Source: Methylomonas rhizoryzae (GTDB lineage: Bacteria > Pseudomonadota > Gammaproteobacteria > Methylococcales > Methylomonadaceae). Taken from it: DNA of 24,000 bases. The notes below the pieces were generated by a model, which worked only from the letters and a program-made list of their open reading frames with translations, made no database searches and was not told the origin of the DNA. Position 1 is the stretch's first letter. Every line of letters starts with the position of its first letter. The position numbers were made by a program, and so were the translations under genes. Positions 3,353-24,000 of this stretch are shown piece by piece. The DNA is taken from NCBI RefSeq assembly GCF_008632455.1, contig NZ_CP043929.1, positions 3,621,774 to 3,645,773 of the forward strand. Reading direction: 5' to 3'.

Positions 3353-3360
3353 AGCTTCGA

Positions 3361-4368
3361 TTATGCGGAAAAGGTTTGCGAATAAGGTTCGGCCATGGCG
3401 ACCACGACTTTACGCGGCCCGCGAAACGGGGCGCGGGCGTGGGCCGCCAGCATGTTGTCCAACATCATCACGTCGCCGGTTTGCCAGGGAAAACTGACGG
3501 TCAGCTCGTCCAACACGCCGCGAATTTCCGCCAATACGCCGTCTTCTATCGGGCTGCCGTCGCCGTAATAGGCGTTGCGCGGCAATTCTTCCGGTTCTAG
3601 CACCGCCAGCAGCGCCTCGCGCACGTCCGCTTCCAGATTAGAGACGTGAAACAAATGCGCCTGGTTGAACCATACCCACTCGCCGGTTATCGGGTGGCGG
3701 GCGGTGGCCTGGCAGATTTGCCGGGTACGCAATTCGCCGTCCGCCAGCCATTCGCAGTCGATGACGTGCTCGCGGCAATAGCGCTCCACGACCGCCGGGT
3801 CGTCGCTGTTGAACACCTGGTTCCAAGGCACATCCAAGCCATTGCCGTAATTACGCACGTACATCAAGCCGTGCTTTTCGAAGCGGCGGCGGATGGCCGG
3901 ATCGATGCGACGGTAGATTTGCCGACTGTCGGCAATAGGCGTTTCCCCGCCCTGCTCGGCCACCAACTCGCTGTAAAACCAGATTTTCAGCGGCCATTCG
4001 CGGGTGTAAGCCTGTTCGTTGTGCAAGGGAATAGCTTGGTGGGGCGGGTATTCGGTCGAGGTGTATATACCGGCATCCACTCGGGTGCGCGGCGTGGAGC
4101 CGAATTCGTAACTCAACAGCGGGTGGCCGAAACCGGCGGCAAAGTCTTTGAATTGCGTAATACCGTCGACCGCGAAATCGCGGAACAATAAGCCGCCGCA
4201 TTCGAGCAGCCGCTGCTGCAACAACTCGCCGAACCGAGTGACCACATCTTGCAGCGCCACGCCCGGAATTTCCGGCCGTATAAGCAATGGCAGGAGGCCG
4301 CCCGACGATAAAGGCTCTATGTGCAATGCAACTGTGGCATTCGCTGCCGATGCGATACTCGTAATCAT
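3361..4368 (-). CDS. TauD/SyrP-like Fe(II)/2-oxoglutarate dioxygenase (NRPS-associated amino-acid beta-hydroxylase, e.g. Asp)
   Basis: 336-aa ORF in the track. HxE facial-triad motif AIPLHNEQAY (His codon about 4021-4023) and distal His in DNMLAAHARAPFRG. Overall resemblance to SyrP-type hydroxylases found in siderophore NRPS clusters. The track start at 4371 is TTG; the ATG at 4368 is more likely. Confidence 0.88.
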   Translation of the reverse strand: MITSIASAANATVALHIEPLSSGGLLPLLIRPEIPGVALQDVVTRFGELLQQRLLECGGLLFRDFAVDGITQFKDFAAGFGHPLLSYEFGSTPRTRVDAGIYTSTEYPPHQAIPLHNEQAYTREWPLKIWFYSELVAEQGGETPIADSRQIYRRIDPAIRRRFEKHGLMYVRNYGNGLDVPWNQVFNSDDPAVVERYCREHVIDCEWLADGELRTRQICQATARHPITGEWVWFNQAHLFHVSNLEADVREALLAVLEPEELPRNAYYGDGSPIEDGVLAEIRGVLDELTVSFPWQTGDVMMLDNMLAAHARAPFRGPRKVVVAMAEPYSQTFSA

Positions 4369-4447
4369 CAAAATTACCGTGATCTATGAATTGAAATTCG
4401 TGCGGAGCCAAGCCTGTCCGGCCGTTTCCCGTACTTCAAGACGCCGA

Positions 4448-4531
4448 GGTGTTTGCCCTGGGAAGCGCTTTCGCACCAGGTATAGAGGCAGGGGGAGAAT
4501 TCCTTTTCCATTGCCTCCCAGGACAAACACC
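4448..4531 (-). other. Long-range RNA stem in the intra-operon spacer between the thioesterase and dioxygenase genes
   Basis: Arms ggtgtttgccctggga (4448-4463) and tcccaggacaaacacc (4516-4531). There are 15 Watson-Crick pairs plus one position that is G-U in the minus-strand (sense) RNA but A-C in the plus-strand RNA. The loop is 52 nt. Confidence 0.4.
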
Positions 4532-4574
4532 GCGTCAGCCTGAATGACGCCGATTCGAGGGGCGCTATCGTCCG

Positions 4575-5321
4575 CTAGAGCGGGCCGCTCGCAGCCTGCG
4601 CAAGTTCGCCGCAACATGCGGCTGCCACGCGGTAAGGTTGTAACGTCTGTCCGAAAAAGCGCAAAAGCTCGGACTCGCAAGCGCGCAAAAAGAAATGGTC
4701 TCCGTCGAACATCTGCAACGAACAGCCGCCGCTGCTCTCTTCGCGCCAAGCCAGTAGCGCTTCCTTACTGATCGCATCGAGGCTGCCGCCCAGAACGTAC
4801 AGCGGCATAGCCAACGGCGGGCGCGTCTTTCTGCGGTAGCCGGCGCACAGCGCGAAATCGGCTTTGAGCACCGGCAACAACAAGGCCATCATCTCGGCGT
4901 TAGCCAGAATTTCGCTGTCTGTACCGTTTAAACGCTGCAACTCCCGGCGCAATTCGTTATCGGTTTGCAAATCGGCGTAACGCTCGGTTCGCCGGCACAG
5001 CGGTGCCTCGGCCGCTGACAATATCAACGCGCATGGCTGCGGCCCGCCGCATTCTTGTAAAACATGGGCCAACTCGAATGCAGCTAACGCGCCCAGGCTG
5101 TGGCCGAATAATGCGAACGGCGCCGAAATTGCCGGTATCAGAGTCGCGGACAGCTCGTCCAGCAAAGCCGGCCATTCGCGCTGCAAGTCTTGCTGCCAGC
5201 GCGCGCCGCGCCCCGGCATTTCCACCGGCACGGCCCGCAACCAGTCCGGCAGGCGCTGTTGCCAGCGCAAGTAAACGGCCGCGCTGGCACCGGCATAAGG
5301 CAGGCAAAAAAGCTGCATCAC
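4575..5321 (-). CDS. Type II thioesterase (NRPS editing thioesterase)
   Basis: 248-aa ORF. N-terminal LFCLPYAGASAAVY, nucleophile elbow GHSLGALAAFE, C-terminal GDHFF, all typical of GrsT/PvdG-type TEII. The first codon is GTG (5321); an ATG follows at 5318. It starts 5 nt after the mbtH-like stop. Confidence 0.9.
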   Translation of the reverse strand: MMQLFCLPYAGASAAVYLRWQQRLPDWLRAVPVEMPGRGARWQQDLQREWPALLDELSATLIPAISAPFALFGHSLGALAAFELAHVLQECGGPQPCALILSAAEAPLCRRTERYADLQTDNELRRELQRLNGTDSEILANAEMMALLLPVLKADFALCAGYRRKTRPPLAMPLYVLGGSLDAISKEALLAWREESSGGCSLQMFDGDHFFLRACESELLRFFGQTLQPYRVAAACCGELAQAASGPL

Positions 5322-5325
5322 CGGC

Positions 5326-5538
5326 TTAGCTCTCCTGACCTTCCATGAACTTGCGCAAGCTTAACGGTCGCATGTCGGTCCAAACCTGTTCGATGTACTC
5401 CAGGCAGTCCTTTTTTAGGCCCGATTTGCCGACCGTGCGCCAACCGTTGGGCACCGGCTTGTAGTCCGGCCATATCGAATATTGTTCTTCATGGTTGACC
5501 ACAACCTGAAACACGGTGTCTTCGCTATCGATGCTCAT
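5326..5538 (-). CDS. MbtH-like protein (adenylation-domain chaperone)
   Basis: 70 aa with the full MbtH signature: [10 protein letters not shown]...PNGW...L...WTDMRP. Confidence 0.95.
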
Positions 5539-5545
5539 AAATTCG

Positions 5546-6517
5546 TCAAATACAAAATTGCTCGAAAAATACTTCCCGCGACAACAGCATCATCGCGGCA
5601 CGTTTATGCGGAAAATCGAATTCCTTCAGCTTGCAAAAGCCGGCTTGCTGCATGTAGCCGATCATCTTGGCGTTGTCGGCGCGCGGCTCGGCCACCACGT
5701 TGCGGGTACGCGGATCGTCCAGAAACATGAAATGCGCCAGAGAAGGCAACCAAGCAGCCACCCGCTGCGGGCCTCGCCAACGCTGTTCGCCGACCAGCAT
5801 GTGCACGCCGCGATCGTAATCGTCCGCCGGGTAGTAAGGCGCGATGCGGTCTTCCTTAGCCCAATAAATCTCGAAATAGCCGAAAGGCTGGCCGTCGAAA
5901 CAACCGAATACCGGCTGCATGTGCGGATCGTTAGTCACTTTGTCCAAGTATTCGCGGTGCATGGCTTGGCTGCCGGCCAATTCCCAAAACGCCGATACTC
6001 TAGGGTCGTTATGCCAAGCGTGGAAGGTATCCAAATCGGCATCCAGATCGACACTGCGAAACGACACCCGCAAGTCCTGCTCAGGCAAATAGCGTCGATA
6101 CAGTTCCCCGGCCGGCAACGGCGGGCGCAGCGGATGGCGCTTGCCGTCGCTGACGACGTAATGCAAAGGGAAAGGTTGTTGACGCAGCTGCGGTAAAAAA
6201 CTGTCGGAGAGTTGCCGCAACATGCTGCGCTTGACGGTGACCAGCTCTTCTTGTGAGCCGGCGATGGCGATTCCGCCGCTGATCAAAGCCGCCGCGATGC
6301 CGCGGGCTTGGATCCGCAACACGACTTCCCTGTTAGCCGGCCGCCGGTCGAACCAGGCTTGCAAGGCCGGCAATAACGCGGCCGGGCTACTGTCGCCGGC
6401 CGCTACAACGACGCTGCCGTCTGCGGTTTCGCACAGACTTGACTGAGGCTGCCGATCGCTATCGGCAGCGTACAAATCGATTTGCAGATTGTCGTAACAG
6501 GTTTGAGAGAGTGTCAT
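5546..6517 (-). CDS. IucB/AlcB-family N-hydroxy-amine acetyltransferase (siderophore hydroxamate formation)
   Basis: 323 aa, about IucB length. Motifs [61 protein letters not shown]. First gene behind a Fur-box promoter. Confidence 0.85.
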
Positions 6518-6570
6518 AGCGCTGGTTACACCTTGGAAACAGTCAGGTTAGCGGATTAAAAAGTTATGCG

Positions 6571-6600
6571 AATAATAACGATTCTCATTTAATATGTCAA
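6571..6600 (-). promoter_or_regulatory. Sigma70-type promoter with overlapping Fur box (acetyltransferase-to-NRPS operon)
   Basis: The minus strand reads TTGACA (6600-6595), a 17-nt spacer, then TATTAT (6577-6572). The Fur-like box aaatgagaatcgttattatt (6590-6571) covers the spacer and -10 element. It lies about 55 nt upstream of the start at 6517. Confidence 0.7.
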
Positions 6601-6660
6601 CCAAACAATTGCTTTCCTCGTCGCGCCGCTCGCCCGTTACCCGCTTCATGCAGCTCGGCC

Positions 6661-7998
6661 CTATCCGACTTTATATATCTTCGCCGCCAGCCCGGAGGTT
6701 TCCGCTCCGGCATTTTCGGCAGCTTGCCCGCCGACCCAGCGCATCGGCGCCGGAAAAGGATCGACCTTGTAAACCGGCCTATCCAGCAAACTGTTGATGA
6801 TTACCGCGGAACGCCAAGCCGCCAAGCTTAGCTGGGCGTCGGCTACGCCGTGGCTGTTGCGGCCGGCGTTCAGCATGTAGATGCGATGCCGGGCCGGGCC
6901 GTCCCAAGGCAATCGATAGTCCTCGCTCAAACGCGGCAGCCCCTCCCGGTCCAAGTCCAATCGTTCCAGCAACGGGGCAAGACAATCCGGTAATTGGTAG
7001 CGGTAACCGGTCGCCAGCACGATGCGATCGACGGTTACCGACTCGTCGCTGCGATTGAAACCGTTGCGCATATGCAAGTGGTAAGCGCCTTTGTCTCGGC
7101 CGGCCAGATGCACTTCCCGATACGGCAAAATCGCATACGGCGTGGTGTCGCGATTCAAGAAATCGCCGTCGTACAAATATTGCGACAGGACTTGCAAGGT
7201 GGCCGGGGACACGCCGTCGCCGGTCAGCTTGTGCGAGGCGACAATCGGCAACTTGCGCGCTTCCGGCAAGGCATGAAACTGGCGCACGTAGTCCGGGGTG
7301 AAATATTCGTTGGTGAAGGCGGTTTCATCCAACGGTTCCAAATTAGGCCGGCGACTGATCCAGACGATCTCCTCGGCCTTGCCGCGGTTGCCGGCCATCA
7401 AATCCAGAAATATCTCCGCCCCGCTTTGCCCGCCGCCGATAATCGCCACCCGCTTGCCGGCTACCGAAAAGTCCGAACCGACGTATCCGTGACTATGCAG
7501 ACAATACTCGCCGACGTAGCGCTCTATCCAGGTGGGAAGGTGCGGGCGCATGCCGGTCGCTACCGCCAAGTGCCGAGCCGCAAGCTCTTTACCGCTTTCG
7601 CAGCGCAAGCGGAAACCGCCGTCGCTAAACCGGATGTGTTCGATGCCGTCGCCGAATTGCAAGCAGGGCAATTGCTCGGCAGCCCAGCGCAAATAATCGG
7701 CAAATTCCAGCCGCCGCACCCTGGGGTAATCGGCATTGACAAAACGGTAAAACCGGCCTTTTTGTACCAGATAGGCCAAAAAACTATAGGGATTGCTAGG
7801 GTCTATCGGGGTTACCAAGTCTTTTAAATACGAGGTCTGCATTTGCGTACCCGGCAGCATCATGCCGGGATGCCAGTTGAAACGCTCGCGGCGCTCGAAG
7901 AAGCGCGCCCGGCAGTCCGGCACTTTAGCCAGCAAGGCCGCCAAACTGAGATTAAAAGGCCCGACGCCGATACCGGCCAGATCAAGAATGTCGCTCAT
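6661..7998 (-). CDS. Lysine/ornithine (or diamine) N-hydroxylase, flavin-dependent (IucD/PvdA/AlcA family)
   Basis: 445 aa. GIGVGPFNLSLAALL (FAD fold), FNWHPGMMLPGTQMQTSYLKDLVTPIDPSNPYSFLAYL, GGGQSGAE (NADPH fold), LATGY, and C-terminal HGVADAQLSLAAWRSA. By recollection it aligns nearly end-to-end with E. coli IucD. Confidence 0.9.
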   Translation of the reverse strand: MSDILDLAGIGVGPFNLSLAALLAKVPDCRARFFERRERFNWHPGMMLPGTQMQTSYLKDLVTPIDPSNPYSFLAYLVQKGRFYRFVNADYPRVRRLEFADYLRWAAEQLPCLQFGDGIEHIRFSDGGFRLRCESGKELAARHLAVATGMRPHLPTWIERYVGEYCLHSHGYVGSDFSVAGKRVAIIGGGQSGAEIFLDLMAGNRGKAEEIVWISRRPNLEPLDETAFTNEYFTPDYVRQFHALPEARKLPIVASHKLTGDGVSPATLQVLSQYLYDGDFLNRDTTPYAILPYREVHLAGRDKGAYHLHMRNGFNRSDESVTVDRIVLATGYRYQLPDCLAPLLERLDLDREGLPRLSEDYRLPWDGPARHRIYMLNAGRNSHGVADAQLSLAAWRSAVIINSLLDRPVYKVDPFPAPMRWVGGQAAENAGAETSGLAAKIYKVG

Positions 7999-8049: not shown

Positions 8050-10461
8050 TCAGTGCGGCAGCAAGATCGTGCGCCGGACGGCGGCTTGCGCCACCCGCTC
8101 GGCTGAAGTCAACAGGGGAAAACCGGCACCCGTGCGCCAGGCGCCGGTCATGTCCCGGTACTGCGCCGCCAAGGGATTGCCGGATTGGCCGGTACCCAGC
8201 ACAAATAGGGACCTGTCCGGCTCCGCCAAGTCGTAAATAGCCCGAAACGCCGGCCCGGCCTCGCCGACGTAACGTCCCGACGCTTCGTCGTAACGGTAAC
8301 CGCTGACGTTGACGCTATCCATGCCGCCGGGACTGGAGGTTTCGACGTTGAACCAAGCGGACAGCCACGGCAAGCCGCCGAACGCCGCGTGACGAAACAA
8401 ACTGGGATGCGCCTCGCCCCAGCGCCACGCCCGCATATCTTTTCCGAAATGCTCGCGCAGATTGTGCAAAGCCCGTTGCAGCGCGGTCTGCATGGCAGCC
8501 GCGCATGGCACGGTATCATCAGCGGTTTGCGCCGGACACCAGCGCGCGGCGGCGCCGTCCCGGTCGGTCAGGACGCGGGCTAAAAACGGCGGGTTGTAAT
8601 CGCCGACTTGCTCGAACAAATCGCCTAGCGGCTCGCGATACAGCACAGCCGCCAATTGCCGCAACCATTCGGCGAAAATCAAGGGCTGCGGACTGTCTTC
8701 GCGCATGCCGCCGTCCCAAGCCCGCAGCAAAACCAAGGCCTGCTGCGTTTCCAGCGTAGCCGGTGTCGCCAATAGAAAAGGCAACAGTTCAGAGGCAAGC
8801 GGGTTGGCGATGTCCGCCTGTATTGCGGCGAAAGAAGCCGTGTCGTGCCGTTCGGTGGCATCCAGCAAGGCCGAGATGCGCTCGGCCCGATACGGCAAGG
8901 CCCAGTTGGCGGTGATGAAATAGGGATAGTTGGGCGGGGTGATGTCTTGATTGGCAGTGACGATTTTGCCGTCGGCGGCTCCGGTTTGTTGCGGCAAGTC
9001 GTCGAACGGGATCCAGCCTTGCCAATCGTAACGACTATCCCAACCCGGTGCGGGCAGGCGGCCGGACAACACGTTCCGTTGATCGCGCAGCGGCACCCGG
9101 CCGGCGGCGATGAAGCCGATTTGTCCTGCCGCATCCGCATAAACGATGTTTTGCTGCGGCGCGTGAAAGTCGCGGGCCATTTGCCGTAATGCGTCGGCAT
9201 TCGCCGCGGTGCCGGCGTTCAGAATAAAACGGATGGTGCTATCGTCGGCGGCCAAGCCGGACCAGTTCAAAGCAATCGCCAAACCGTCGGACGCCAGCTG
9301 AGCGGCATCCGGGTCGGCATCGGACAACAGCGGCCCGTGACGGCTCAGGCGCACGGTTAAATTTTCCGTTTGTCCGCCCTTAATCCGGATCGTTTCGTCG
9401 ATACGCTCGAACTCGGCCGCACCCTCCGGGGTTCGATAACGCTGCGTTTGACCCGGCAAGGTTTGTTCGAAATATAGGTCCTGGCTATCCGGACCGGTAT
9501 TGGTGAAAGCCCAGGCGACTTGGCGGTTGCGTCCCAGAACGACGCCGGGAATACCGGGCAAGGTCGCGCCGATTGCATCCAAACCCGGCGCGTGCAAATG
9601 CGCGAAATACCACAGCGATGGCGCGGTCAGGGGCAGATGCGGATCGTTGGCCAAAATGGGTTTACCGCTAATCGACCGACTGCCGTCCACGGCCCAGTTG
9701 TTGGAACCGACTGCTTGTTTGGCCGGCAAGCGGCCAAATGCCAGCAAGCGTTCGGTCAGGCTATGCGTTGCCGCCGCATTCCCCGGATATTCGGGCAACC
9801 CGGCCACGGATGCGTACGGGTAACCTGGAAACAAATCGGCGATGTGCTTAGGCGGCAAGCGTTGCTGCAATTTGAAATTCAGCAACTCCTCCCACCAATT
9901 GCCGGACAGATTCCAGGCCAGGGTTTTCAACCAGACCAAGGAATCCTGCGGCTGCCACCGCTCCGGACCAGCGCCGAGCAGGTAGTATTCGACCGGCAAC
10001 CAATGCGCCTGGTCCAGATAGGCGTTGACCCCGTCGGCATACGCCTGCAGCGCCGTGCGCGTGGCTTGATCCAACTGTTGCCAATTGGCCTGCGCCGCAC
10101 GCTGCAAGCCCAACACCCGGAAAAACCTATCCTGCGGCAAAGCCTGTTCGCCGAGCAGTTCCGCTAACCGGCCGGAGCCGGCCCGCCGGTTCAAATCCAT
10201 TTGCCACAAGCGCTCCTGCGCGTGCAGATAGCCCAAGGTCAAATAGGCGTCGGTTATGCTAGCCGCGTACACGTGCGGCACGCCGTAACGATCGGTGACT
10301 ATTTCCACCGTGTCGCTCAAGCCCGCCGCCGACAACTTTTCCGGCCCTTGATCCAATCCGATGAACAAGCCGCCGCCGATAGCCAAGCACAAAACCAGAC
10401 TCAGCGACAAGCCAAGCGGCAGCGCCCGGATATTTACAACGCAATGTGCGGCTGTCGGCAT
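8050..10461 (-). CDS. Penicillin-acylase family (S45) Ntn hydrolase, PvdQ/QuiP-like acyl-siderophore or acyl-HSL acylase
   Basis: 825-aa ORF in the track. VEIVTDRYGVPHVYA, LGYLHAQERLWQMD, and the autoprocessing/nucleophile site G|SNNWAV (Ser codon 9703-9705) followed by ANDPHL. N-terminal hydrophobic segment LPLGLSLSLVLCLAIGGGLFIGL (signal or anchor). The track start at 10527 is GTG and overlaps the upstream gene by 41 nt. I prefer the ATG at 10461. Confidence 0.88.
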   Translation of the reverse strand: MPTAAHCVVNIRALPLGLSLSLVLCLAIGGGLFIGLDQGPEKLSAAGLSDTVEIVTDRYGVPHVYAASITDAYLTLGYLHAQERLWQMDLNRRAGSGRLAELLGEQALPQDRFFRVLGLQRAAQANWQQLDQATRTALQAYADGVNAYLDQAHWLPVEYYLLGAGPERWQPQDSLVWLKTLAWNLSGNWWEELLNFKLQQRLPPKHIADLFPGYPYASVAGLPEYPGNAAATHSLTERLLAFGRLPAKQAVGSNNWAVDGSRSISGKPILANDPHLPLTAPSLWYFAHLHAPGLDAIGATLPGIPGVVLGRNRQVAWAFTNTGPDSQDLYFEQTLPGQTQRYRTPEGAAEFERIDETIRIKGGQTENLTVRLSRHGPLLSDADPDAAQLASDGLAIALNWSGLAADDSTIRFILNAGTAANADALRQMARDFHAPQQNIVYADAAGQIGFIAAGRVPLRDQRNVLSGRLPAPGWDSRYDWQGWIPFDDLPQQTGAADGKIVTANQDITPPNYPYFITANWALPYRAERISALLDATERHDTASFAAIQADIANPLASELLPFLLATPATLETQQALVLLRAWDGGMREDSPQPLIFAEWLRQLAAVLYREPLGDLFEQVGDYNPPFLARVLTDRDGAAARWCPAQTADDTVPCAAAMQTALQRALHNLREHFGKDMRAWRWGEAHPSLFRHAAFGGLPWLSAWFNVETSSPGGMDSVNVSGYRYDEASGRYVGEAGPAFRAIYDLAEPDRSLFVLGTGQSGNPLAAQYRDMTGAWRTGAGFPLLTSAERVAQAAVRRTILLPH

Positions 10462-10486
10462 TGGTTTACTCTGTCTGCTTTGCTTG

Positions 10487-11257
10487 TCAAACGCGGATAA
10501 GGTCTCGGGATTTGGGTCGATTAACACCCAACACGCCGAATAAAGCCGTTAAAAACAACCAAACGGCACCCGGCAACGGCACGGCAACCGGAGTTTCGGC
10601 ATAGGGCGCGCCTTGCGCTACCCCGGCAATGTCGAAAGCAACCTGGGCGATGCGCGAACCCGCGGCAGCGGATAAATCGAATAAGTAGGCGCTATCGTCG
10701 GGGGCAAAAGTTAAATCCCAAATCAGTAGCGATTGATACACCGCATATTCGACCGAGTCCATGACCACGGTATTGCCGGTGTCGGTCAATGCCACATAGT
10801 CCGCACTCAAGCCGTTCAGCCAAATGTTGTCGTAATCGACGCCGTCGCCGTCCAACGTTACCCAAGCTTCCAACTGCATGGCAACCCGGGTGACTTGATC
10901 TACGGCTTGCGCGGCGTATCCGGAAATATCCGCGTAGGCGAATATCGACTCGCCGTCGTTGGCCAGATTGCCGTAAGCGTCGATTGCGGTGCCGTCCCAG
11001 CTATTCCAGCCGAAGCTGGCACCGCTTAGCCCGTAGCTTCCGGCCAACAACTGGCCGTCCGCGTTGAAGGTATCCCATTCGGCATAAACCGTCCCCGCGT
11101 CACCGCGGCTCCAGCCTCCCCAAACCGCTTGCTGCGGCTTGTCGAACCCGTAGCCTGCCTGGTAAGGATCCATGCCGTTGGCGATATCCGCCACCGCGGG
11201 TAGTGCCTGCGTCAACAATCCTGCCGCCAACACGATTGCAAAAGAATGATGTTTCAT
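10487..11257 (-). CDS. Secreted acidic protein of unknown function with a VPLPA/PEP-CTERM-type C-terminal sorting signal
   Basis: 256 aa. Signal peptide MKHHSFAIVLAAGLLTQALPAVA|DI. C-terminus VPLPGAVWLFLTALFGVLGV-NRPKSR, i.e. motif, TM helix, basic cluster (exosortase-substrate architecture). The body is D/G/W/Y/A-rich with no Cys. I recognise no family. Confidence 0.75.
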   Translation of the reverse strand: MKHHSFAIVLAAGLLTQALPAVADIANGMDPYQAGYGFDKPQQAVWGGWSRGDAGTVYAEWDTFNADGQLLAGSYGLSGASFGWNSWDGTAIDAYGNLANDGESIFAYADISGYAAQAVDQVTRVAMQLEAWVTLDGDGVDYDNIWLNGLSADYVALTDTGNTVVMDSVEYAVYQSLLIWDLTFAPDDSAYLFDLSAAAGSRIAQVAFDIAGVAQGAPYAETPVAVPLPGAVWLFLTALFGVLGVNRPKSRDLIRV

Positions 11258-11289
11258 AGTCGAATTCCGGTTGATATTGATGAATTGCG

Positions 11290-11316
11290 GCAGCCGGCTT
11301 TACCTCAGCCGGCTGC
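11290..11316 (-). other. Perfect 10-bp intercistronic hairpin between the P-domain gene and the CTERM-protein gene
   Basis: gcagccggct (11290-11299), ttacctc loop, agccggctgc (11307-11316). In the sense (minus) RNA it sits 22 nt after the stop codon and has no U-tract after it. The T-run is on the plus-strand side only. Confidence 0.5.
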
Positions 11317-11338
11317 TTTCGGATTTAGGGAGGCGAGT

Positions 11339-12256
11339 CTATTGCAGTGAGCAGGACTGATCGTCATCCGCGGTAATTTCCAGACTCCAGCCACCCTTGA
11401 TCTCGCCGGCGAACCAATAGAAATCGTCGACCACGTACAACTTCCATTGGCCGGACGGATCCGCACCGTTAAAGGTGGCGAGTTTCGGACCGTTGGTGAC
11501 GATTTTGTAAGTGCTTTCGTCGCCGGGGGTCGGAGTGGTCAACACCGTGGTAGGGGTCAGTGCAATCGAGGTTTCCGGATCCTGCAGTTCCACGGGGGCC
11601 GGTGCCGGGAAATGGTCGGTATCGGGATTGTTGTCGTAATCGCTGGGTTTGTAGGTACGCAATGCGGTATCGGTCCATACGTCCACCCACTCTTCGTAGA
11701 TGACGTTGTAAAGCGCATTGGTGGTTCTATTGCTCAAGCGACCATTGTTGCGAGTAGTACGCGGCAACGGCAAGGTTGCGGAATCGTCGAATTTCCAATT
11801 CAGGTTTTCCGCGACGATGCCCAACACCCCACCCTCAGGGGTCGCACCGGCCGAACTGACGTTAGACGCCAGCATCACGTATTGGCCGTTCGGCCCCACC
11901 AACAGCATGTCGACGTCGTTTAAATAGTCGTGATACAAGCCTTTGATGGTTACGTTGACGTCCTTAATTTTCGCGCCTTTCGGGAACGCGCTTTTCGGAA
12001 CGTTAATCATCGAAGGATAGGTTTTGGCTGCTTTTACCGGAACCGCCGGCGCACCTTCCGCAGTGTATGTCTCCAACAGCGCGGCGCACTCCGGCAACTC
12101 CGGATCGGCGCAGGTGTCTTGAATCACGATCGGGCGCGGATTGGCGAAGGTTCTGGTAACCGCATCGGCATTGACCGAAGCGACGGGCAAGCCCGCCAGC
12201 AGCGCTACCGCAGCGGCTAACGGCTTGGCTTGAACACGTGACAAAGTATGCTTCAT
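11339..12256 (-). CDS. Secreted stand-alone proprotein-convertase P-domain-like protein (no protease domain)
   Basis: 305 aa. Signal peptide MKHTLSRVQAKPLAAAVALLAGLPVASVNA|DA. First P-domain half: IKDVNVTIKGLYHDYLNDVDMLLVGPNGQYVML...NLNWKFDDSA. Second half: FNGADPSGQWKLYVVDDFYWFAGEIKGGWSLEI. The halves are separated by roughly 80-100 extra residues. First gene behind a Fur-box promoter. Confidence 0.75.
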   Translation of the reverse strand: MKHTLSRVQAKPLAAAVALLAGLPVASVNADAVTRTFANPRPIVIQDTCADPELPECAALLETYTAEGAPAVPVKAAKTYPSMINVPKSAFPKGAKIKDVNVTIKGLYHDYLNDVDMLLVGPNGQYVMLASNVSSAGATPEGGVLGIVAENLNWKFDDSATLPLPRTTRNNGRLSNRTTNALYNVIYEEWVDVWTDTALRTYKPSDYDNNPDTDHFPAPAPVELQDPETSIALTPTTVLTTPTPGDESTYKIVTNGPKLATFNGADPSGQWKLYVVDDFYWFAGEIKGGWSLEITADDDQSCSLQ

Positions 12257-12350
12257 GAATATTTTCCCTAAATAACAATTGAGATGACTGTGGCTGCATT
12301 CCCGTTCGAAAACCTCGCTAAGGAGGCATTAAAAAACGAAATATTTTCGA

Positions 12351-12395
12351 AATGAGAACGATTATCATTTTGTTAAACAAACACAGACTTGTCAA
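12351..12395 (-). promoter_or_regulatory. Sigma70-type promoter with Fur box (P-domain/CTERM/acylase/hydroxylase operon)
   Basis: The minus strand reads TTGACA (12395-12390), a 17-nt spacer, then CAAAAT (12372-12367). It is immediately overlapped by the Fur-like box aaatgataatcgttctcatt (12370-12351). It lies about 95 nt upstream of ATG 12256. Confidence 0.68.
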
Positions 12396-12905: not shown

Positions 12906-12941
12906 TTGCTTTTTTTAATTGAGAATGATTATCATTTGAAA
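12906..12941 (+). promoter_or_regulatory. Fur box with candidate promoter for the small-ORF/ABC-exporter unit
   Basis: gagaatgattatcatt (12921-12936) matches GATAATGATAATCATT at 14 of 16 positions. Possible -35 ttgctt (12906-12911) and -10 tatcat (12930-12935) with an 18-nt spacer. It lies 33 nt upstream of ATG 12969. Confidence 0.68.
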
Positions 12942-12968
12942 AAAGTCACTCGCCACGTGAGTACACCT

Positions 12969-13181
12969 ATGAAAATGTTTTCATCACTTTTTAAAGCACC
13001 CGCCACGGTAAAACTGGAAATCGAGCCGCGCTACTTGGCCGTACTGATTGCAAACGGCCAACTGCATGCTACCGATTTCCGCTGTCTGGACCTAAATTCC
13101 AAGCAAATCGTTTGGAAACTGCTGCTGACGCTTGCCAAGGCTAAGCTGAACGGCAACGACAGACTCGCGGAAAGCGGCTAG
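12969..13181 (+). CDS. Small hypothetical protein (70 aa)
   Basis: The track ORF 12906..13181 starts at TTG inside the Fur box. The first ATG is 12969 (MKMFSSLFKAPATVKLEIEPRYLAVLIANGQLHATDFRCLDLNSK...). Third-position GC is about 60% by my count, above the local average. The SD is weak. No family recognised. Confidence 0.5.
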   Translation: MKMFSSLFKAPATVKLEIEPRYLAVLIANGQLHATDFRCLDLNSKQIVWKLLLTLAKAKLNGNDRLAESG

Positions 13182-13228
13182 ACAGCGGCCCGATCAAACG
13201 CGTCCATCCATATCCCGGAGATTAATCC

Positions 13229-13450
13229 ATGTCGAAAAAACCTTGTACTCACGAATACTTAGCCACTAACGAGAGCGGTAAAGTATTGATTTGCCGCGAA
13301 TGCGGAGTAGTTCATCTGCATCTGCACAATATGTCCTTGCGCCTGGACGAACAGCAATTCGCCAGTTTTGCCGCGTTGATGAATCAAGCGGCGCGCAACG
13401 TCGCCGACAACGCCATGGCTAAACGCCCCAGCCTGACTTTAGTGCATTAA
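13229..13450 (+). CDS. Small hypothetical protein (73 aa) with a C-x-H...C-x-x-C zinc-ribbon-like N-terminus
   Basis: GGAG lies 8 nt upstream of the ATG. Sequence MSKKPCTHEYLATNESGKVLICRECGVVHLHLHNMSLRLDEQQFASFAAL... The stop is 8 nt before the exporter ATG, so the two are probably co-translated. Third-position GC is about 59%. Confidence 0.62.
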   Translation: MSKKPCTHEYLATNESGKVLICRECGVVHLHLHNMSLRLDEQQFASFAALMNQAARNVADNAMAKRPSLTLVH

Positions 13451-13458
13451 TTCAGATT

Positions 13459-15126
13459 ATGACGCTGCTGCGTTTATTGTTTAACCGCTTCAAAACCACT
13501 TTATTACTGGCGATTCTGTTAAGCCTGGCCAGTGCCGGGCTTTCGGTGGCGGTTATCGCGTTCAGCAACGAACGCTTGCTACAAACAACGGGTGACTTGC
13601 AAACCACGCTATTACAGTTTTCTGGCTTGCTGGCAGCTGTTTTGATCATTGGCACCGCCTCGCAAATCTGCATGACCAAACTTGGCCATCGCTTGGTGTA
13701 CGAAATGCGCCGCACCATGGTCAAGCGTATTTTGGATACGGAATTGCAGCGCCTGGAGTGGCTAGGCCCCGCCCGCTTGTTAGCCAGCTTGAACGGCGAT
13801 ACCAACCGCTTGACCTCCGCCTTTATCGGCCTACCTTCGGCACTGTACGGTTTGGCGCTGAATCTGGGCAGTTTTGCTTACCTGGCCTGGCTATCGCCGC
13901 GGCTATTCGCCGCAGTAGCCGGCTGGATGGCTGTCGGCGTGGCGATAGCCTGGTTGCTGCTTAACCGCACCCATCAACACATAGCGGCGGCCCGCTACGT
14001 CGAAGACCTGTTATACGAGGACTATCAAGCCGCACTCTACGGCCGCAAGGAATTGGCCTTAAACCGCGACCGGGCAAAACGCTTCTATAACGACGAATTC
14101 GAAACCAACGCCCAAACCAGCCGCAACTGCGAAATTCGGGCGGACATTTACAACGCGTGCAACGAAAACTGGGCCAACGCCATGATATTAGGTGCCATAG
14201 GCTTGGTATTTTATTTGGTCAACGCCCTGGCCTGGGAAACATCCGCCGTTGCCACCACCTACGCCGTGACGATTTTATTCTTGCGCACGCCCTTGACCGG
14301 TTTGATCGCCGCCATTCCCGGCTTAATCGGCGGCAGCGTGGCGCTGGCGAAATTGGACAGCCTGGAACTCCCCTGCTACAACCCTAAGTTTTCCGTTGCG
14401 CAAACCGCCGCAACCGCAACGTGGCGGACGCTGACGTTAAAAAACGTCGAATACCGCTACCCCGCTCTTGAAAACGGCAACCCGTTTTCGGTGGGGCCTA
14501 TCGACTTCGAACTGCGGCGCGGTGAACTCGTGTTTCTGATCGGCGGCAACGGTAGCGGAAAAACCACGTTCAGCCGCTTGCTGACCGGACTGTACCGTCC
14601 GCAAAACGGGCAATTGCTGCTAGACGGCCACCCGCTGACCGAAGCCCATCGTCCCGCTTACCGCAGTCTGTTCTCCAGCGTGTTTTCCGACTTTTATTTG
14701 TTTTCGCGCTTGCTGGGCCCGAATGGAGCCGATGCCGATCCGGAGCAAATCCGTTTTTGGCTAAACCAATTCGGTTTGGCGGACAAGGTAACCGTTGAAG
14801 ACAGTAAACTATCGGATACTAACTTGTCGCAAGGCCAACGCAAGCGTTTGGCGCTGATAGCCGCACTATTGGAAGACCGGCCCGTGTTGGTGTTGGACGA
14901 ATGGGCGGCCGATCAAGACCCGGAATATAGGCGCCGCTTTTACAGCGAGTGGTTGCCGCTATTGAAAGCCAGCGGTAAAACCGTGCTTGCCATTACCCAC
15001 GACGAACATTATTTTTCCGTCGCCGACCGCATTGTGAAAATGGACGAAGGCCGCATCCACGCGCTAGAGACACGGCAGGGCCCGGTTTTTCCGGTTAGTC
15101 GATATTCGGTTTCGGATTGGCCGTAA
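13459..15126 (+). CDS. Cyclic-peptide/siderophore ABC exporter, fused TMD-NBD half-transporter (PvdE/SyrD family)
   Basis: 555 aa. N-terminal TM domain. Walker A GGNGSGKTT (nt 14542-14568), signature LSQGQRKRLAL, and Walker B VLVLDEWAADQDPEYRR. The DEWAADQDP form is characteristic of the PvdE/SyrD cyclic-peptide transporter family. Confidence 0.9.
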   Translation: MTLLRLLFNRFKTTLLLAILLSLASAGLSVAVIAFSNERLLQTTGDLQTTLLQFSGLLAAVLIIGTASQICMTKLGHRLVYEMRRTMVKRILDTELQRLEWLGPARLLASLNGDTNRLTSAFIGLPSALYGLALNLGSFAYLAWLSPRLFAAVAGWMAVGVAIAWLLLNRTHQHIAAARYVEDLLYEDYQAALYGRKELALNRDRAKRFYNDEFETNAQTSRNCEIRADIYNACNENWANAMILGAIGLVFYLVNALAWETSAVATTYAVTILFLRTPLTGLIAAIPGLIGGSVALAKLDSLELPCYNPKFSVAQTAATATWRTLTLKNVEYRYPALENGNPFSVGPIDFELRRGELVFLIGGNGSGKTTFSRLLTGLYRPQNGQLLLDGHPLTEAHRPAYRSLFSSVFSDFYLFSRLLGPNGADADPEQIRFWLNQFGLADKVTVEDSKLSDTNLSQGQRKRLALIAALLEDRPVLVLDEWAADQDPEYRRRFYSEWLPLLKASGKTVLAITHDEHYFSVADRIVKMDEGRIHALETRQGPVFPVSRYSVSDWP

Positions 15127-15234
15127 ATCCCCCGGAAATAAAGGAAGCGGGAAAATTTCAAACGCCATGCTTATCGAACCATAGCCGGCTAGCGCTTAAG
15201 CCCCTCTCTGTGTCCCACTTAAAACGGGCAGCCG

Positions 15235-16407: not shown

Positions 16408-17583
16408 TCAGGAGCGGCGCGTTGCCGATCTCCCGCTCTTATGCCACCATATCCTGAAACCGGTCACGACCAGCACGGCAATGGCCAAGCCCAGCACGGA
16501 TACCGCCACGCGCCCCGGTAAGCCGGCTATCCGCCCGCTGTGCAAGGGCAATTGCCAAGCGTCGAAAATGTCGGCGGCCGTACCTTGGCCCGGCAAATAG
16601 TCGTCCAAGTATGCGGCAGTTTGGCCGTCGTAATACAGATAATCCGCCCCTAAGCCGTCGGCATCGCCGTATCCGACCCCGAAAATGCCGTATTGGGCGT
16701 TATAAAACACGCTGGAGCGCTGCTTGGTCCAGTGCCGCGCGTCGGCCTCTATTTGCGCCCGATCCAAGACCATGACGAAAGATACCGCAGCTTCGACCGG
16801 CTCCGCCTCGGCCCGGTCGTCGCGCGCATCGAACGGGCTAGGGGTAAAATCGCTAAACAGGCCGACTAGCGGCTCGAACAAGGCATCCCGCAAATTCAGC
16901 GAAATCGCCGAAACCGACAGGATCAGCAAAAACCCGGAAAGCCATAAGCCGCCGGCCCTATGTAGATCGAAATTCAAGCGTTTGCCTCGTGCGCCGGGTT
17001 TAATCCGCCAAGCGGTGCGCCAAGATTGCCGGCTGGCCCCGGCCTCCCGGCGGACTAGCGCTAAGGCCGTTTGCGGTAAGCTCAGATAAAAACCGATCAG
17101 GGTTTCCAGCAGCACGATCACCGCTACTATACCCATCACCCACAAGCCGATCTCGCCCGGCAATTGCAAGCTGTAGTGCAGCACGTAAACGCATGGGATC
17201 AGCTGCTTGCGTTCCAAGCCGCACGCCCCCCATATTCGCCCGCCCAACACTTTGCCGTCTACCGGATCGACGAACACCTCGTCATACGCCGCCGGCATGT
17301 CGGCTTGCGTAGGCCTCAGGGTAATTTTCGCCGCGCGGCCGGCGACGCGTTGCAGTGGTAACGACACCACACGGTATTCGGGTAGCTCGCGCTGCAAGGC
17401 GGACAGCAGTTGCGCGTCGGTTAGCGCCGCGCCCTGAGCGGAGCTATAAAACAGCTCGGGGTTCAGCCACGCGTCCAATTCCTGCTGGTAGGCGATGATG
17501 CACCCGGTCAAACTGGCTTGCAACAAAAACAAGGCGGCGGTCAAGCCAAGATAGCGGTGTAAGCGCGCCCAAAGCTTTCGCAT
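16408..17583 (-). CDS. PepSY-associated TM-helix protein (PiuB/FoxB-like putative ferric-siderophore reductase)
   Basis: 391 aa. N-terminal RLHRYLGLTAALFLLQASLTG. Three further His-containing TM motifs: VLHYSLQLPG, FDLHRAGGLW, LPLHSGRIAGLPGR. C-terminal TGFRIWWHK. It starts 16 nt after the receptor stop. Confidence 0.85.
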   Translation of the reverse strand: MRKLWARLHRYLGLTAALFLLQASLTGCIIAYQQELDAWLNPELFYSSAQGAALTDAQLLSALQRELPEYRVVSLPLQRVAGRAAKITLRPTQADMPAAYDEVFVDPVDGKVLGGRIWGACGLERKQLIPCVYVLHYSLQLPGEIGLWVMGIVAVIVLLETLIGFYLSLPQTALALVRREAGASRQSWRTAWRIKPGARGKRLNFDLHRAGGLWLSGFLLILSVSAISLNLRDALFEPLVGLFSDFTPSPFDARDDRAEAEPVEAAVSFVMVLDRAQIEADARHWTKQRSSVFYNAQYGIFGVGYGDADGLGADYLYYDGQTAAYLDDYLPGQGTAADIFDAWQLPLHSGRIAGLPGRVAVSVLGLAIAVLVVTGFRIWWHKSGRSATRRS

Positions 17584-17598
17584 GGCGGGACTTCGCGC

Positions 17599-19914: not shown

Positions 19915-19944
19915 TGCTTCACCTGCAAATTTGAGTTGCAAGCG

Positions 19945-22446: not shown

Positions 22447-24000
<1,554 letters not shown>

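What the first reader, a model, noticed from the sequence alone, without database searches (positions are those of the whole stretch)
10487..11257. Exosortase-type (VPLPA/PEP-CTERM-like) sorted protein embedded in a siderophore operon
The ORF has a clean Sec signal peptide. Its C-terminus is VPLPGAVWLFLTALFGVLGV-NRPKSR, the tripartite motif/TM helix/basic-cluster architecture of PEP-CTERM-class sorting signals processed by exosortases. The mature region is acidic, Trp/Tyr/Gly/Asp-rich and Cys-free, and I recognise no family. PEP-CTERM-class proteins are usually linked to exopolysaccharide and biofilm loci, not iron acquisition. Here the gene sits between the P-domain gene and the acylase gene in a Fur-box operon. 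This suggests an iron-starvation-induced cell-surface component, for example tethering or concentrating an amphiphilic siderophore, or docking the acylase.
Basis: partly seen in the sequence, partly recalled or inferred. Interest (0 to 1): 0.72.

Follow-up and report, generated by a model that had tools for sequence, protein, structure and literature searches.

The report
Iron-regulated exosortase-tailed surface protein family
This Methylomonas gene encodes a secreted, acidic beta-sandwich protein with an exosortase-type C-terminal tail, from an unnamed family usually encoded next to TonB-dependent iron/haem receptors, so it is probably a surface helper for iron uptake and not a core siderophore-pathway part.

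Summary
ORF 10487-11257(-) encodes 256 aa: a Sec signal peptide, an acidic Cys-free all-beta domain, and a C-terminal VPLPG / TM helix / basic tail. It lies between a P-domain gene and a PvdQ-like acylase, in a leftward operon whose promoter carries a Fur-box-like site. The organism is Methylomonas rhizoryzae.

The tail scores below the curated VPLPA-CTERM cut-off (12 vs 25.35 bits). Three things still support it as a sorting signal. Homologues carry passing VPLPA-CTERM or canonical PEP-CTERM tails at the aligned position. Methylococcales tails beside a true XrtD exosortase also score below the cut-off. One family member lies about 2.6 kb from an XrtB-like exosortase.

The main new result is the family itself. 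It has no Pfam or NCBIfam name and about 70 clusters at 50% identity. In 9 of 10 informative loci it lies within 5 kb of a TonB-dependent receptor, mostly in hemP/HemS haem-uptake operons with Fur-box-like sites.

The gene is missing from otherwise syntenic siderophore clusters. It is therefore an accessory recruit, not a core component.

Best reading: an iron-regulated, exosortase-sorted extracellular accessory of TonB-dependent iron acquisition, analogous to the zinc exoprotein ZepA. The ligand is unknown. An exosortase in this genome could not be checked.

The parts
10487..11257 (-). Target ORF, 256 aa (stop codon included). It belongs to an unnamed family of TBDR-associated, acidic beta-sandwich proteins with exosortase-type tails.
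11189..11257 (-). Sec signal peptide, residues 1-23, predicted cleavage AVA|D. No lipobox.
   Evidence: Read directly from the sequence. AF2 helix at 4-16. The signal peptide is aligned in all homologues.
10583..11188 (-). Mature domain, residues 24-225. It has a conserved N-terminal motif, F38..P41..W46-G-G-W49-x-R51-G-D53-A-G-T56-x-Y58-A-E-W61-D62, followed by an all-beta sandwich (strands 56-214). pI is about 4.05, with no Cys and no His.
   Evidence: AF2 pLDDT 84.9, pTM 0.78. Invariant columns. Composition. No PDB fold match at E<1e-3 and no PDB sequence match.
10490..10582 (-). C-terminal sorting-type tail, residues 226-256: VPLPG motif, hydrophobic helix (230-245), weak basic cluster NRPKSR, then DLIRV.
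   Evidence: TIGR03370 12.0 bits against cut-off 25.35. Aligned with passing VPLPA-CTERM and PEP-CTERM tails in homologues. Nearly identical to the tail of a M. rivi PepA equivalog.
12354..12372 (.). Fur-box-like site (15/19 to GATAATGATAATCATTATC) overlapping the -10 of the leftward promoter-like site (-35 TTGACA at 12395, -10 CAAAAT ending at 12367).
11339..12256 (-). First gene of the operon: a secreted 305-aa protein with a proprotein-convertase P-domain. It is a variable accessory: present with FAM in L006-8/L092, alone in L061/L064, and absent in L060/L062.
11290..11316 (-). GC-rich hairpin of 10 bp between the P-domain gene and the target ORF, with no U tract.
   Evidence: MFE -24.3 kcal/mol, z -1.96
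8050..10527 (-). Ntn-hydrolase acylase (Penicil_amidase; weak PvdQ match). The likely real start is M23 at 10461, 25 nt after the target's stop codon.
   Evidence: The spacing is comparable with L006, where the gap is 29 nt.
2..7998 (-). Rest of the siderophore operon: Orn/Lys N-monooxygenase 6661-7998, GNAT Acetyltransf_8 5546-6517, MbtH 5326-5538, thioesterase 4575-5321, TauD-family hydroxylase 3361-4371, and an NRPS starting A-T-C at 3352 and running off the window.
12921..15126 (+). Divergent unit: a second Fur-box-like site 12921-12939, small ORFs 12906-13181 and 13229-13450 (DUF6686), and an ABC exporter 13459-15126.
16408..19941 (-). TonB-dependent receptor 17599-19941 and PepSY_TM protein 16408-17583. 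This is the nearest TBDR to the target, 6.3 kb away.

Best explanation
The gene encodes an iron-starvation-induced, extracytoplasmic accessory protein of TonB-dependent iron acquisition. It belongs to an unnamed 'choice-of-anchor' family.

Proposed route:
1. Fur derepresses the leftward operon.
2. The precursor is exported by Sec and the signal peptide is removed at AVA|D.
3. The C-terminal VPLPG / TM / basic tail holds the precursor in the inner membrane, where an exosortase (XrtD type in this order) recognises and removes it.
4. The acidic beta-sandwich is passed to the cell surface or exopolymer layer.
5. There its invariant Trp/Arg/Asp/Asn/Gln face binds a partner common to haem-type and siderophore-type loci. 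The partner could be the iron source itself, the receptor, or a surface polymer that keeps the protein near the receptor. This raises capture or hand-off to the TonB-dependent receptor, as proposed for the zinc exoprotein ZepA.

In M. rhizoryzae a diverged paralogue of the mainly haem-operon-linked family was recruited, together with a P-domain protein, to the front of an acyl-peptide siderophore operon.

Shown here: the architecture, family membership, the TBDR / Fur-box-site neighbourhood, the interchangeable tails, and the accessory status.
Inferred: iron regulation in vivo, exosortase processing, surface location, and the ligand.
For: Architecture.

Family: 8 close and about 70 representative homologues, none with a Pfam or NCBIfam name for the N-domain.

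Tail interchange on one aligned domain:
- VPLPA-CTERM passes in P0004, P0005 and P0009.
- PEP-CTERM passes in P0013, P0018, P0019 and P0076.
- Some long members carry PKD/Big_9/cadherin stalks instead of a tail.

Exosortase links:
- P0076 lies about 2.6 kb from an XrtB-like exosortase with a fused EpsI domain (XrtB model 223.5 bits, cut-off 275).
- XrtD (540 bits against cut-off 400) lies next to or near VPLPA-type tails in L047 and in the Methylococcales MAG L054.
- Such tails are multi-copy in Methylomonas species.
- Methylomonas sp. LW13 has two annotated exosortase genes (PMC5874918).

TBDR and iron neighbourhood:
- A TBDR lies within 5 kb in 9 of 10 informative non-redundant loci, and within 600 nt in 7. 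These include hemP-TBDR-x-FAM-HemS-PNPOx-PBP-FecCD-ABC in M. methanica and Methylomonas sp. TEB, and FAM-TBDR in Nitrosovibrio.
- Fur-box-like sites occur in the window and in 7 of the 11 family loci scanned. I placed those in L001, L003, L006, L009, L018 and L019 upstream of the unit that includes the family gene.

Extracellular character: every N-domain checked is acidic and Cys-free.

Precedent: ZepA is a FUR-family-regulated PEP-CTERM exoprotein that supplies zinc. It is encoded near TBDTs and other PEP-CTERM proteins (PMC10957091).
Against: - The window's tail scores 12 bits against a cut-off of 25.35, and its basic cluster is weak. The closest homologue tested in full, P0003, also misses TIGR03370, and the isolated P0002 tail reaches only 15.6 bits.
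- No exosortase could be sought in the M. rhizoryzae genome.
- No conserved His, Cys or Met, and no strictly conserved Tyr, that could ligate haem.
- No fold match to hemophores, NEAT domains or siderophore-binding proteins. Only generic jelly-roll, lectin and CBM similarity at TM <= 0.33.
- In the window the nearest TBDR is 6.3 kb away, and no TBDR is seen in the flank held for L006.
- The gene is absent from syntenic siderophore clusters, so any role is dispensable for that pathway.
- The fate of exosortase substrates is poorly established experimentally.
- The loci are not phylogenetically independent.
Confidence: 0.55

Rival explanations
1. The protein is a dedicated component of this siderophore pathway, a surface tether that concentrates the amphiphilic acyl-siderophore or docks the PvdQ-like acylase.
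For: It sits 25-40 nt upstream of the acylase in the same operon. The NRPS begins with an A-T-C loading module with a fatty-acyl-AMP-ligase-like N-terminus, which together with the acylase is consistent with an acylated siderophore. The P-domain / FAM / acylase order is kept in homologous clusters with 69% identity in the family protein.
Against: Syntenic clusters with about equally similar acylases (59-62%) lack the gene: L061/L064 have the P-domain gene only, and L060 and L062 have neither. Most family members lie in haem/TBDR loci with no acylase or NRPS. The conserved motif is the same in haem-linked and siderophore-linked members, which argues against a siderophore-specific site.
Confidence: 0.1
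2. The tail is only a C-terminal membrane anchor that is never processed by an exosortase. The protein faces the periplasm from the inner membrane and acts there, for example escorting substrates between the receptor and the binding-protein/ABC system or organising periplasmic maturation enzymes.
For: The tail fails TIGR03370, and its basic cluster is reduced to NRPKSR. P0003 also fails, and the isolated P0002 tail reaches 15.6 bits. The neighbours are periplasmic proteins (acylase, PBP, P-domain protein). An exosortase in this genome is not shown.
Against: The VPLPG motif, which is not needed for a plain anchor, is conserved in all three siderophore-clade proteins and across the family. It swaps with canonical PEP-CTERM tails. 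Tails beside true XrtD genes also score below the cut-off (15.4 and 22.9 bits), and a M. rivi PepA equivalog carries almost the same tail. Some family members replace the tail with long PKD/Big_9/cadherin stalks typical of surface proteins.
Confidence: 0.15
3. It is a matrix or adhesion protein, a lectin-like exosortase substrate that shapes exopolysaccharide or flocs, or attaches cells to iron-bearing particles. It is switched on by iron limitation but does not take part directly in receptor-mediated uptake.
For: The weak fold similarity is to legume lectins, CBMs and other jelly-rolls. The conserved face is Trp-rich. Sub-threshold hits go to the flocculation protein PepA and other PEP-CTERM families. 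In L013 the gene sits in an exosortase / polysaccharide-export neighbourhood. PEP-CTERM systems are classically EPS-linked (Haft 2006, cited within PMC5874918).
Against: The PepA-type hits cover mostly the tail and last strands and lie far below the cut-off, 12-37 bits against 80. The dominant neighbourhood is TBDR/hemP/HemS operons, not EPS loci.
Confidence: 0.12
4. It is a hemophore-like haem-binding protein. This is a narrow form of the best explanation. In M. rhizoryzae the paralogue would bind the ferric siderophore instead.
For: Placement directly between the haem receptor and HemS/PNPOx/PBP genes in several lineages. Co-occurrence with exosortase-tailed HExxH metalloproteases near TBDRs, which recalls protease-plus-hemophore systems.
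Against: No conserved axial-ligand residue. The window protein's mature domain has no His or Cys. No fold match to HasA, HmuY or NEAT in the top PDB hits.
Confidence: 0.08

Closest known systems
VPLPA-CTERM / XrtD sorting system (TIGR03370 tail, TIGR04152 exosortase), a variant of PEP-CTERM/EpsH
   Same: [quoted passage not shown] Homologues are named VPLPA-CTERM proteins by NCBI (P0004). XrtD is present in the same order beside such tails.
   Different: This protein's tail is below the curated cut-off and has a weak basic cluster. The context is iron/haem uptake, not exopolysaccharide. The cognate exosortase was not shown in this genome.
ZepA (All3515) of Anabaena: Zur-regulated PEP-CTERM exoprotein for zinc uptake (PMC10957091)
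   Same: [quoted passage not shown] Both have FUR-family operator sites upstream. Both are encoded near TonB-dependent transporters and other PEP-CTERM proteins. The proposed mechanism is also the same: hand-off to an outer-membrane receptor.
   Different: The ZepA zinc motif H-x(2-9)-H-[FY]-H occurs in 0 of 60 family sequences, and the window protein's mature domain has no His at all. The box is a Fur-type iron box, not a Zur box. ZepA has a second novel domain.
Sortase-anchored NEAT-domain proteins of the Gram-positive Isd haem system; hemophores HasA and HmuY (own knowledge)
   Same: The logic is shared: a beta-sandwich protein with a C-terminal sorting signal, encoded inside an iron-regulated haem-uptake operon next to the transporter.
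   Different: There is no homology, no conserved haem ligand, and a different sorting enzyme class (exosortase against sortase). No fold match appears in the top PDB hits.
PepA, the flocculation-associated PEP-CTERM protein (NF033554), and other named PEP-CTERM families (FxDxF NF038126, NF038129, XDP1 NF041927)
   Same: They share the tail and the last beta-strands before it. 35 of 42 family members give weak PepA hits.
   Different: All scores are far below the cut-offs: 12.2 against 80 for the window protein, and 36.7 for the best member read individually (P0009). The conserved N-terminal motif is not covered.
Pyoverdine-type periplasmic maturation set (PvdQ acylase and others)
   Same: It is encoded beside an Ntn acylase in an NRPS hydroxamate / beta-hydroxy-amino-acid siderophore operon.
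   Different: It is not homologous to any Pvd maturation protein, and it is dispensable in syntenic clusters.

Membership tests
VPLPA-CTERM sorting domain (TIGR03370) | Curated HMM score at or above 25.35 bits | tested here: not met
   12.0 bits for the whole protein and 13.0 for the isolated tail. Family members P0004 (25.6), P0005 (32.2) and P0009 (30.9) pass. Tails beside true XrtD genes also fail, at 15.4 and 22.9 bits.
VPLPA-CTERM sorting domain (TIGR03370) | Tripartite tail at the extreme C-terminus: VPLPA-like motif, hydrophobic helix, basic cluster | tested here: met
   VPLPG at 226-230. AF2 helix at 230-245. NRPKSR at 246-251 has three basic residues, which is weaker than the usual RRR(K).
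VPLPA-CTERM sorting domain (TIGR03370) | N-terminal signal peptide on the same protein | tested here: met
   MKHH-hydrophobic core-AVA|D, read from the sequence. No dedicated signal-peptide predictor was available.
VPLPA-CTERM sorting domain (TIGR03370) | Cognate exosortase XrtD (TIGR04152) in the same genome | not testable with these tools
   Only 24 kb of this genome is held. XrtD (540 bits against cut-off 400) was found in the Methylococcales MAG L054 and in L047. Two exosortase genes are reported in Methylomonas sp. LW13 (PMC5874918).
VPLPA-CTERM sorting domain (TIGR03370) | Many paralogous proteins with the same tail in the genome or lineage | tested here: met
   Shown for the genus, not for this genome. 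Tail matches occur in M. defluvii (3 loci), M. rivi (2), M. rosea, M. aurea, Methylobacter and Methyloglobulus, on unrelated N-domains.
PEP-CTERM (TIGR02595 / PF07589) | Pro-Glu-Pro motif and an HMM hit | tested here: not met
   The window protein has VPLPG and no hit. Family members P0013, P0018, P0019 and P0076 have VPEP and pass.
ZepA zinc exoprotein family | Conserved H-x(2-9)-H-[FY]-H zinc site | tested here: not met
   0 of 60 family sequences carry it. There is no His in the mature window protein.
ZepA zinc exoprotein family | Sequence homology (>=35% identity, >=75% coverage in the paper) | not tested
Hemophore / NEAT-type haem-binding proteins | Conserved axial haem ligand (Tyr/His/Met) and the matching fold | tested here: not met
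   No invariant His, Met or Cys. Tyr58 is replaced by F, H, W or T in relatives. No such structures appear among the top 50 PDB Foldseek hits.
Flocculation PEP-CTERM protein PepA (NF033554) | HMM score at or above 80 bits | tested here: not met
   12.2 bits for the window protein. A true equivalog in M. rivi scores 147.8.
Unnamed TBDR-associated acidic beta-sandwich family (defined here) | N-domain motif F..P..(A)W(G)GW.RGD.GT...W(D) plus invariant N97, Q128, W180 and D209; acidic and Cys-free; a TBDR nearby | tested here: met
   All invariant columns are present in the window protein. N-domain HMM E = 7.7e-49. pI 4.05. The nearest TBDR is 6.3 kb away, farther than in most members.

The most novel reading that the evidence does not exclude
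The family is an undescribed, widespread class of exosortase-sorted extracellular partners of TonB-dependent receptors in environmental Proteobacteria (methanotrophs, nitrifiers, methylotrophs, sulfur oxidisers). These proteins would capture iron, haem or ferric siderophore at the cell surface and hand it to the receptor. That would make them the iron counterpart of the zinc exoprotein ZepA and a Gram-negative parallel to sortase-anchored Isd proteins. In some loci they would act together with exosortase-tailed metalloproteases and a second tailed protein family.
Probability: 0.3. Interest if true: 0.8.

Novelty: new variant of a known kind. Interest (0 to 1): 0.6.

Why it matters
Exosortase substrates are abundant in environmental bacteria, yet very few have a known function, and they are usually filed under biofilm or exopolysaccharide.

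This work finds a protein family with interchangeable VPLPA-CTERM and PEP-CTERM tails that is almost always encoded next to TonB-dependent receptors, in haem and iron operons with Fur-box-like sites. Together with ZepA for zinc, it suggests that exosortase sorting supplies extracellular helpers for metal acquisition.

This gives a concrete, testable function for an exosortase cargo. It also points to a missing component of haem and iron uptake in methanotrophs and nitrifiers, organisms with very high iron and haem demand.

Two practical points follow. The curated VPLPA-CTERM cut-off misses the Methylococcales form of the tail. And genes at the front of siderophore clusters need not be biosynthetic.

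Tried and rejected
- **Family libraries.** Pfam, NCBIfam and PHROGs gave no family for the N-domain.
- **Solved structures.** A profile search of PDB sequences gave nothing at E <= 1.
- **Canonical Fur 19-mer.** No match within 3 mismatches. Relaxed scoring found the two 15/19 sites.
- **Search for a Methylomonas exosortase.** Using the L013 exosortase as query returned only Burkholderiales XrtB.
- **Literature.** Searches for VPLPA-CTERM, XrtD, PEP-CTERM with haem, and Methylomonas siderophores found nothing describing this family. Haft 2012 (PMC3256604) is not held.
- **Rejected: ZepA homologue.** The zinc motif is absent.
- **Rejected: PepA homologue.** The hits cover the tail only and are sub-threshold.
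- **Rejected: lipoprotein.** The protein has no Cys.
- **Rejected: chance ORF.** Conserved homologues exist.
Full report
**1. The observation.**
The N-terminus, MKHHSFAIVLAAGLLTQALPAVA|DI, is a standard Sec signal with an AxA site and no lipobox. The C-terminus is VPLPGAVWLFLTALFGVLGVNRPKSRDLIRV.

Residues 24-225 have a pI near 4.05, with 28 Asp+Glu against 4 Lys+Arg. They contain no Cys or His, 8 Trp, 13 Tyr, 23 Gly and 23 Asp. An AlphaFold2 model built on 27 homologues is confident (pLDDT 84.9, pTM 0.78). It shows a signal helix at 4-16, an all-beta sandwich at 56-214 and a terminal helix at 230-245.

The product is 100% identical to WP_150050262.1, a 'hypothetical protein' of Methylomonas rhizoryzae.

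**2. The surroundings.**
The gene is second in a leftward operon:
- P-domain protein, 11339-12256
- target ORF, 10487-11257
- penicillin-amidase / PvdQ-like acylase, 8050-10527 (probable true start at 10461)
- Orn/Lys N-monooxygenase
- GNAT acyltransferase
- MbtH
- thioesterase
- TauD-family hydroxylase
- an NRPS that starts A-T-C and runs off the window

The canonical Fur 19-mer has no match within 3 mismatches. Two sites match it 15/19, at 12354-12372 and 12921-12939. They share GAGAAYGATTATCATTT, found twice against 0.01 expected. The first overlaps the -10 of a leftward TTGACA-17-CAAAAT promoter-like site.

The divergent unit carries small ORFs and an ABC exporter. A PepSY_TM gene and a TonB-dependent receptor follow at 16408-19941. 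'Fur-box operon in a siderophore locus' is therefore a fair description.

**3. Is the tail a sorting signal?**
The curated HMM says no for this protein: TIGR03370 gives 12.0 bits against a cut-off of 25.35. Comparison with relatives points the other way.
- *Passing tails in homologues.* In the family alignment the same position holds tails that pass TIGR03370 (P0004 25.6, P0005 32.2, P0009 30.9 bits). It also holds canonical VPEP tails that pass TIGR02595 (P0013, P0018, P0019, P0076). About 11 of 42 members reach the TIGR03370 cut-off.
- *Stalks in place of tails.* Some long members lack a tail and carry PKD/Big_9/cadherin-like stalks, an extracellular architecture.
- *Exosortase nearby.* Member P0076 lies about 2.6 kb from an XrtB-like exosortase with a fused EpsI domain. 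That enzyme scores 223.5 bits on the XrtB model, below its 275 cut-off.
- *XrtD in the order.* A profile built from exosortases found two further enzymes among the loci held. Both are bona fide XrtD, the 'VPLPA-CTERM-specific exosortase' (540 bits against cut-off 400). One is in a Methylococcales MAG, and each lies beside or near a VPVPAAVW-tailed ORF.
- *The cut-off is too strict for this order.* Those XrtD-neighbour tails also fail TIGR03370, at 15.4 and 22.9 bits. A Methylomonas rivi equivalog of the flocculation PEP-CTERM protein PepA (147.8 bits against 80) ends in AVPLPGAVWMFLAGMMGVFSVGRKKK. That is nearly the window's tail, and it scores 13.0 bits. The HMM failure therefore reflects the Methylococcales form of the tail, not its absence.
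- *Multi-copy tails.* Tails of this type occur on unrelated N-domains in M. defluvii, M. rivi, M. rosea, M. aurea, Methylobacter and Methyloglobulus.
- *Exosortases in the genus.* Methylomonas sp. LW13 has two annotated exosortase genes (PMC5874918).

What I could not do is search the M. rhizoryzae genome itself for an exosortase.

**4. The family and where it is found.**
The N-domain has no Pfam, NCBIfam or PHROG family and no PDB sequence relative. The exhaustive representative search found 70 clusters at E <= 1e-3.

Its hallmark is an N-terminal motif, F38..P41..W46-G-G-W49-x-R51-G-D53-A-G-T56-x-Y58-A-E-W61-D62, plus invariant N97, Q128, W180 and D209. Every N-domain checked is strongly acidic and Cys-free.

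Genomic contexts:
- M. methanica MC09 and Methylomonas sp. TEB: hemP - TBDR - small ORF - FAM - HemS/ChuX - PNPOx - PBP - FecCD - ABC.
- A JGI contig: hemP - TBDR - two small ORFs - FAM - a second, 426-aa FAM.
- Another contig: hemP - TBDR - FAM (400 aa) - PNPOx - HemS - PBP.
- A gammaproteobacterial MAG: two copies flanking a haem ABC/PNPOx/TBDR cluster.
- Methylophaga: beside hemP and a TBDR.
- Nitrosovibrio sp. Nv17: FAM 4 nt upstream of a TBDR.
- UBA7966: three tandem copies next to a TBDR.
- P0008: 479 nt from a TBDR.

Counting non-redundant informative loci, 9 of 10 have a TBDR within 5 kb and 7 within 600 nt. Fur-box-like sites occur in 7 of the 11 family loci scanned. I placed those in L001, L003, L006, L009, L018 and L019 upstream of the unit that includes the family gene, for example about 80 nt upstream of P0007.

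Only the window clade (window, P0002, P0003; 69-71% identity) sits in an NRPS siderophore operon.

**5. Core or accessory in the siderophore cluster?**
I scanned metagenomes with the acylase and annotated the 80 loci returned by similarity to the window's proteins.
- L092 (the same contig as L008) has ABC exporter - P-domain - FAM - acylase.
- L061/L064 have P-domain - acylase with a 196-nt gap and no FAM.
- L060 and L062 have neither gene, yet keep the acylase, PvdA-like, GNAT and TauD genes (L060 also the thioesterase). Their acylases are about as similar to the window's as that of L092 (59-62%).

The gene is therefore a lineage-specific accessory to the operon. It cannot be required for making or maturing the siderophore.

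**6. Mechanism.**
*Shown:* the Sec signal; the beta-sandwich; the conserved aromatic/acidic face; the exosortase-class tail by homology; the neighbourhood of TonB-dependent receptors and Fur-box-like sites; the accessory status.

*Inferred:* the tail is cleaved by an XrtD-type exosortase; the domain reaches the cell surface or matrix; there it supports receptor-mediated iron acquisition.

The same invariant motif is kept in haem-operon and siderophore-operon members. The conserved site therefore probably recognises something common to both settings: Fe(III) itself (the conserved donors are hard O-ligands, Asp/Asn/Gln/Tyr), a receptor surface, or a surface polymer. It is unlikely to recognise haem or one particular siderophore.

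A strict hemophore model is weakened in two ways. No axial ligand is conserved. And no fold match to known haem binders was found.

The closest functional precedent is ZepA of Anabaena. It is a Zur-regulated, PEP-CTERM-tailed beta-sandwich exoprotein that supplies zinc, is encoded near TBDTs and other PEP-CTERM proteins, and is proposed to hand metal to an outer-membrane receptor (PMC10957091). The family is not ZepA: its H-x(2-9)-H-[FY]-H site occurs in 0 of 60 sequences.

**7. Rivals.**
- An unprocessed inner-membrane anchor holding a periplasmic protein: 0.15.
- An iron-induced lectin-like matrix or adhesion protein: 0.12.
- A true hemophore: 0.08.

The evidence for and against each is in the structured fields. 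I place 0.55 on the general model of an exosortase-sorted, iron-regulated, receptor-associated extracytoplasmic accessory.

**8. Novelty and verdict.**
The sorting class is known, and ZepA shows that PEP-CTERM exoproteins can serve metal uptake. Three things are new: an unnamed domain family, its near-constant pairing with TonB-dependent receptors in iron and haem operons, and its recruitment into a siderophore operon. I found no paper describing this.

I rate it a new variant of a known kind, with interest 0.6. The general interpretation (sorted, iron-linked surface protein) is supported. The specific siderophore-tethering or acylase-docking proposal is not.

Noticed in passing
L010:918-3398; L013:8846-11314 and 15185-15982; L015:11565-14017: A recurring set of other exosortase-tailed proteins accompanies the family near TBDRs. 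One is a roughly 250-aa family with the motif EDVMTSSFFTG...GYAG. The others are one or two HExxH zinc-metalloprotease-like proteins. Their tails are VPLPA-type or PEP-CTERM depending on the lineage. This looks like a conserved surface module (binder plus proteases plus receptor).
   Followed up: partly
L047:9419-10138 and 11099-12892; L054:4237-4812 and 10674-12212; L043:9185-10084: The curated TIGR03370 cut-off (25.35 bits) misses Methylococcales-type tails (VPVPGAVWLFGSAL...), even on ORFs beside true XrtD genes (15.4 and 22.9 bits). It also misses the tail of a M. rivi PepA equivalog (13.0 bits). VPLPA-CTERM proteins are therefore likely under-annotated in this order.
   Followed up: yes
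window 11339-12256 (-): A standalone secreted protein with a proprotein-convertase P-domain and no attached peptidase leads the siderophore operon. Its presence varies among syntenic clusters: with FAM, alone, or absent. Its function is unknown.
   Followed up: partly
window 13229-13450 (+) and 12906-13181 (+): Two small ORFs lie between the second Fur-box-like site and the ABC exporter. The 73-aa ORF matches DUF6686 and has a C-x13-C-x2-C motif (CTHEYLA...ICRECGVVHLH). Similar ORFs sit next to the ABC exporter in L060, L061 and L062.
   Followed up: partly
window 11290-11316 (-): A 10-bp GC-rich hairpin (GCAGCCGGCU...AGCCGGCUGC) lies in the 81-nt gap between the P-domain gene and the target ORF. 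It has no U tract, MFE -24.3 kcal/mol and z -1.96. It may be an mRNA stability or processing element that sets different levels of the two products.
   Followed up: partly
window 6568-6592; L006:9822-9846; L060:7402-7426; L062:7140-7164: An internal Fur-box-like site lies between the N-monooxygenase and GNAT genes. It is strong in related clusters (2-4 mismatches) and weak in the window (6 mismatches). This suggests a second iron-controlled promoter inside the operon.
   Followed up: partly
P0014, P0023, P0027, P0040, P0077, P0078; L009:4148-5428: Family variants of about 400 aa replace the tail with a Pro-rich linker and an unannotated C-terminal domain ending G-x-C-D...G-I-P-x-L-x-E-G-D-[YF]. 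The two whose loci were examined (P0078 in L017; the 426-aa L009 copy) lie in hemP/TBDR haem loci. No Pfam match.
   Followed up: partly
L001:9529-9741; L018:9432-9833; L009:2947-3165; L023:547-1233: A conserved ORF of about 70 aa (...LRLEVRLLKRGQKEIIIYCGKQYRYVVDF...) sits between the haem TBDR and the family gene in several haem loci (L001, L018, L009), with a further homologue in L023. It has no signal peptide and no annotation.
   Followed up: no
window 2-3352 (-): The NRPS opens with an A-T-C loading module whose N-terminus looks like a fatty-acyl-AMP ligase. Together with the PvdQ-like acylase, this is consistent with an N-acylated (amphiphilic) hydroxamate / beta-hydroxy-amino-acid peptide siderophore.
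   Followed up: partly
window 22088-24000 (-); 20136-21734 (+): The right end of the window holds a 5S rRNA and the 3' half of a 23S rRNA. Next to them is a 532-aa TPR protein fused to a putative 2OG-Fe(II) oxygenase domain.
   Followed up: no
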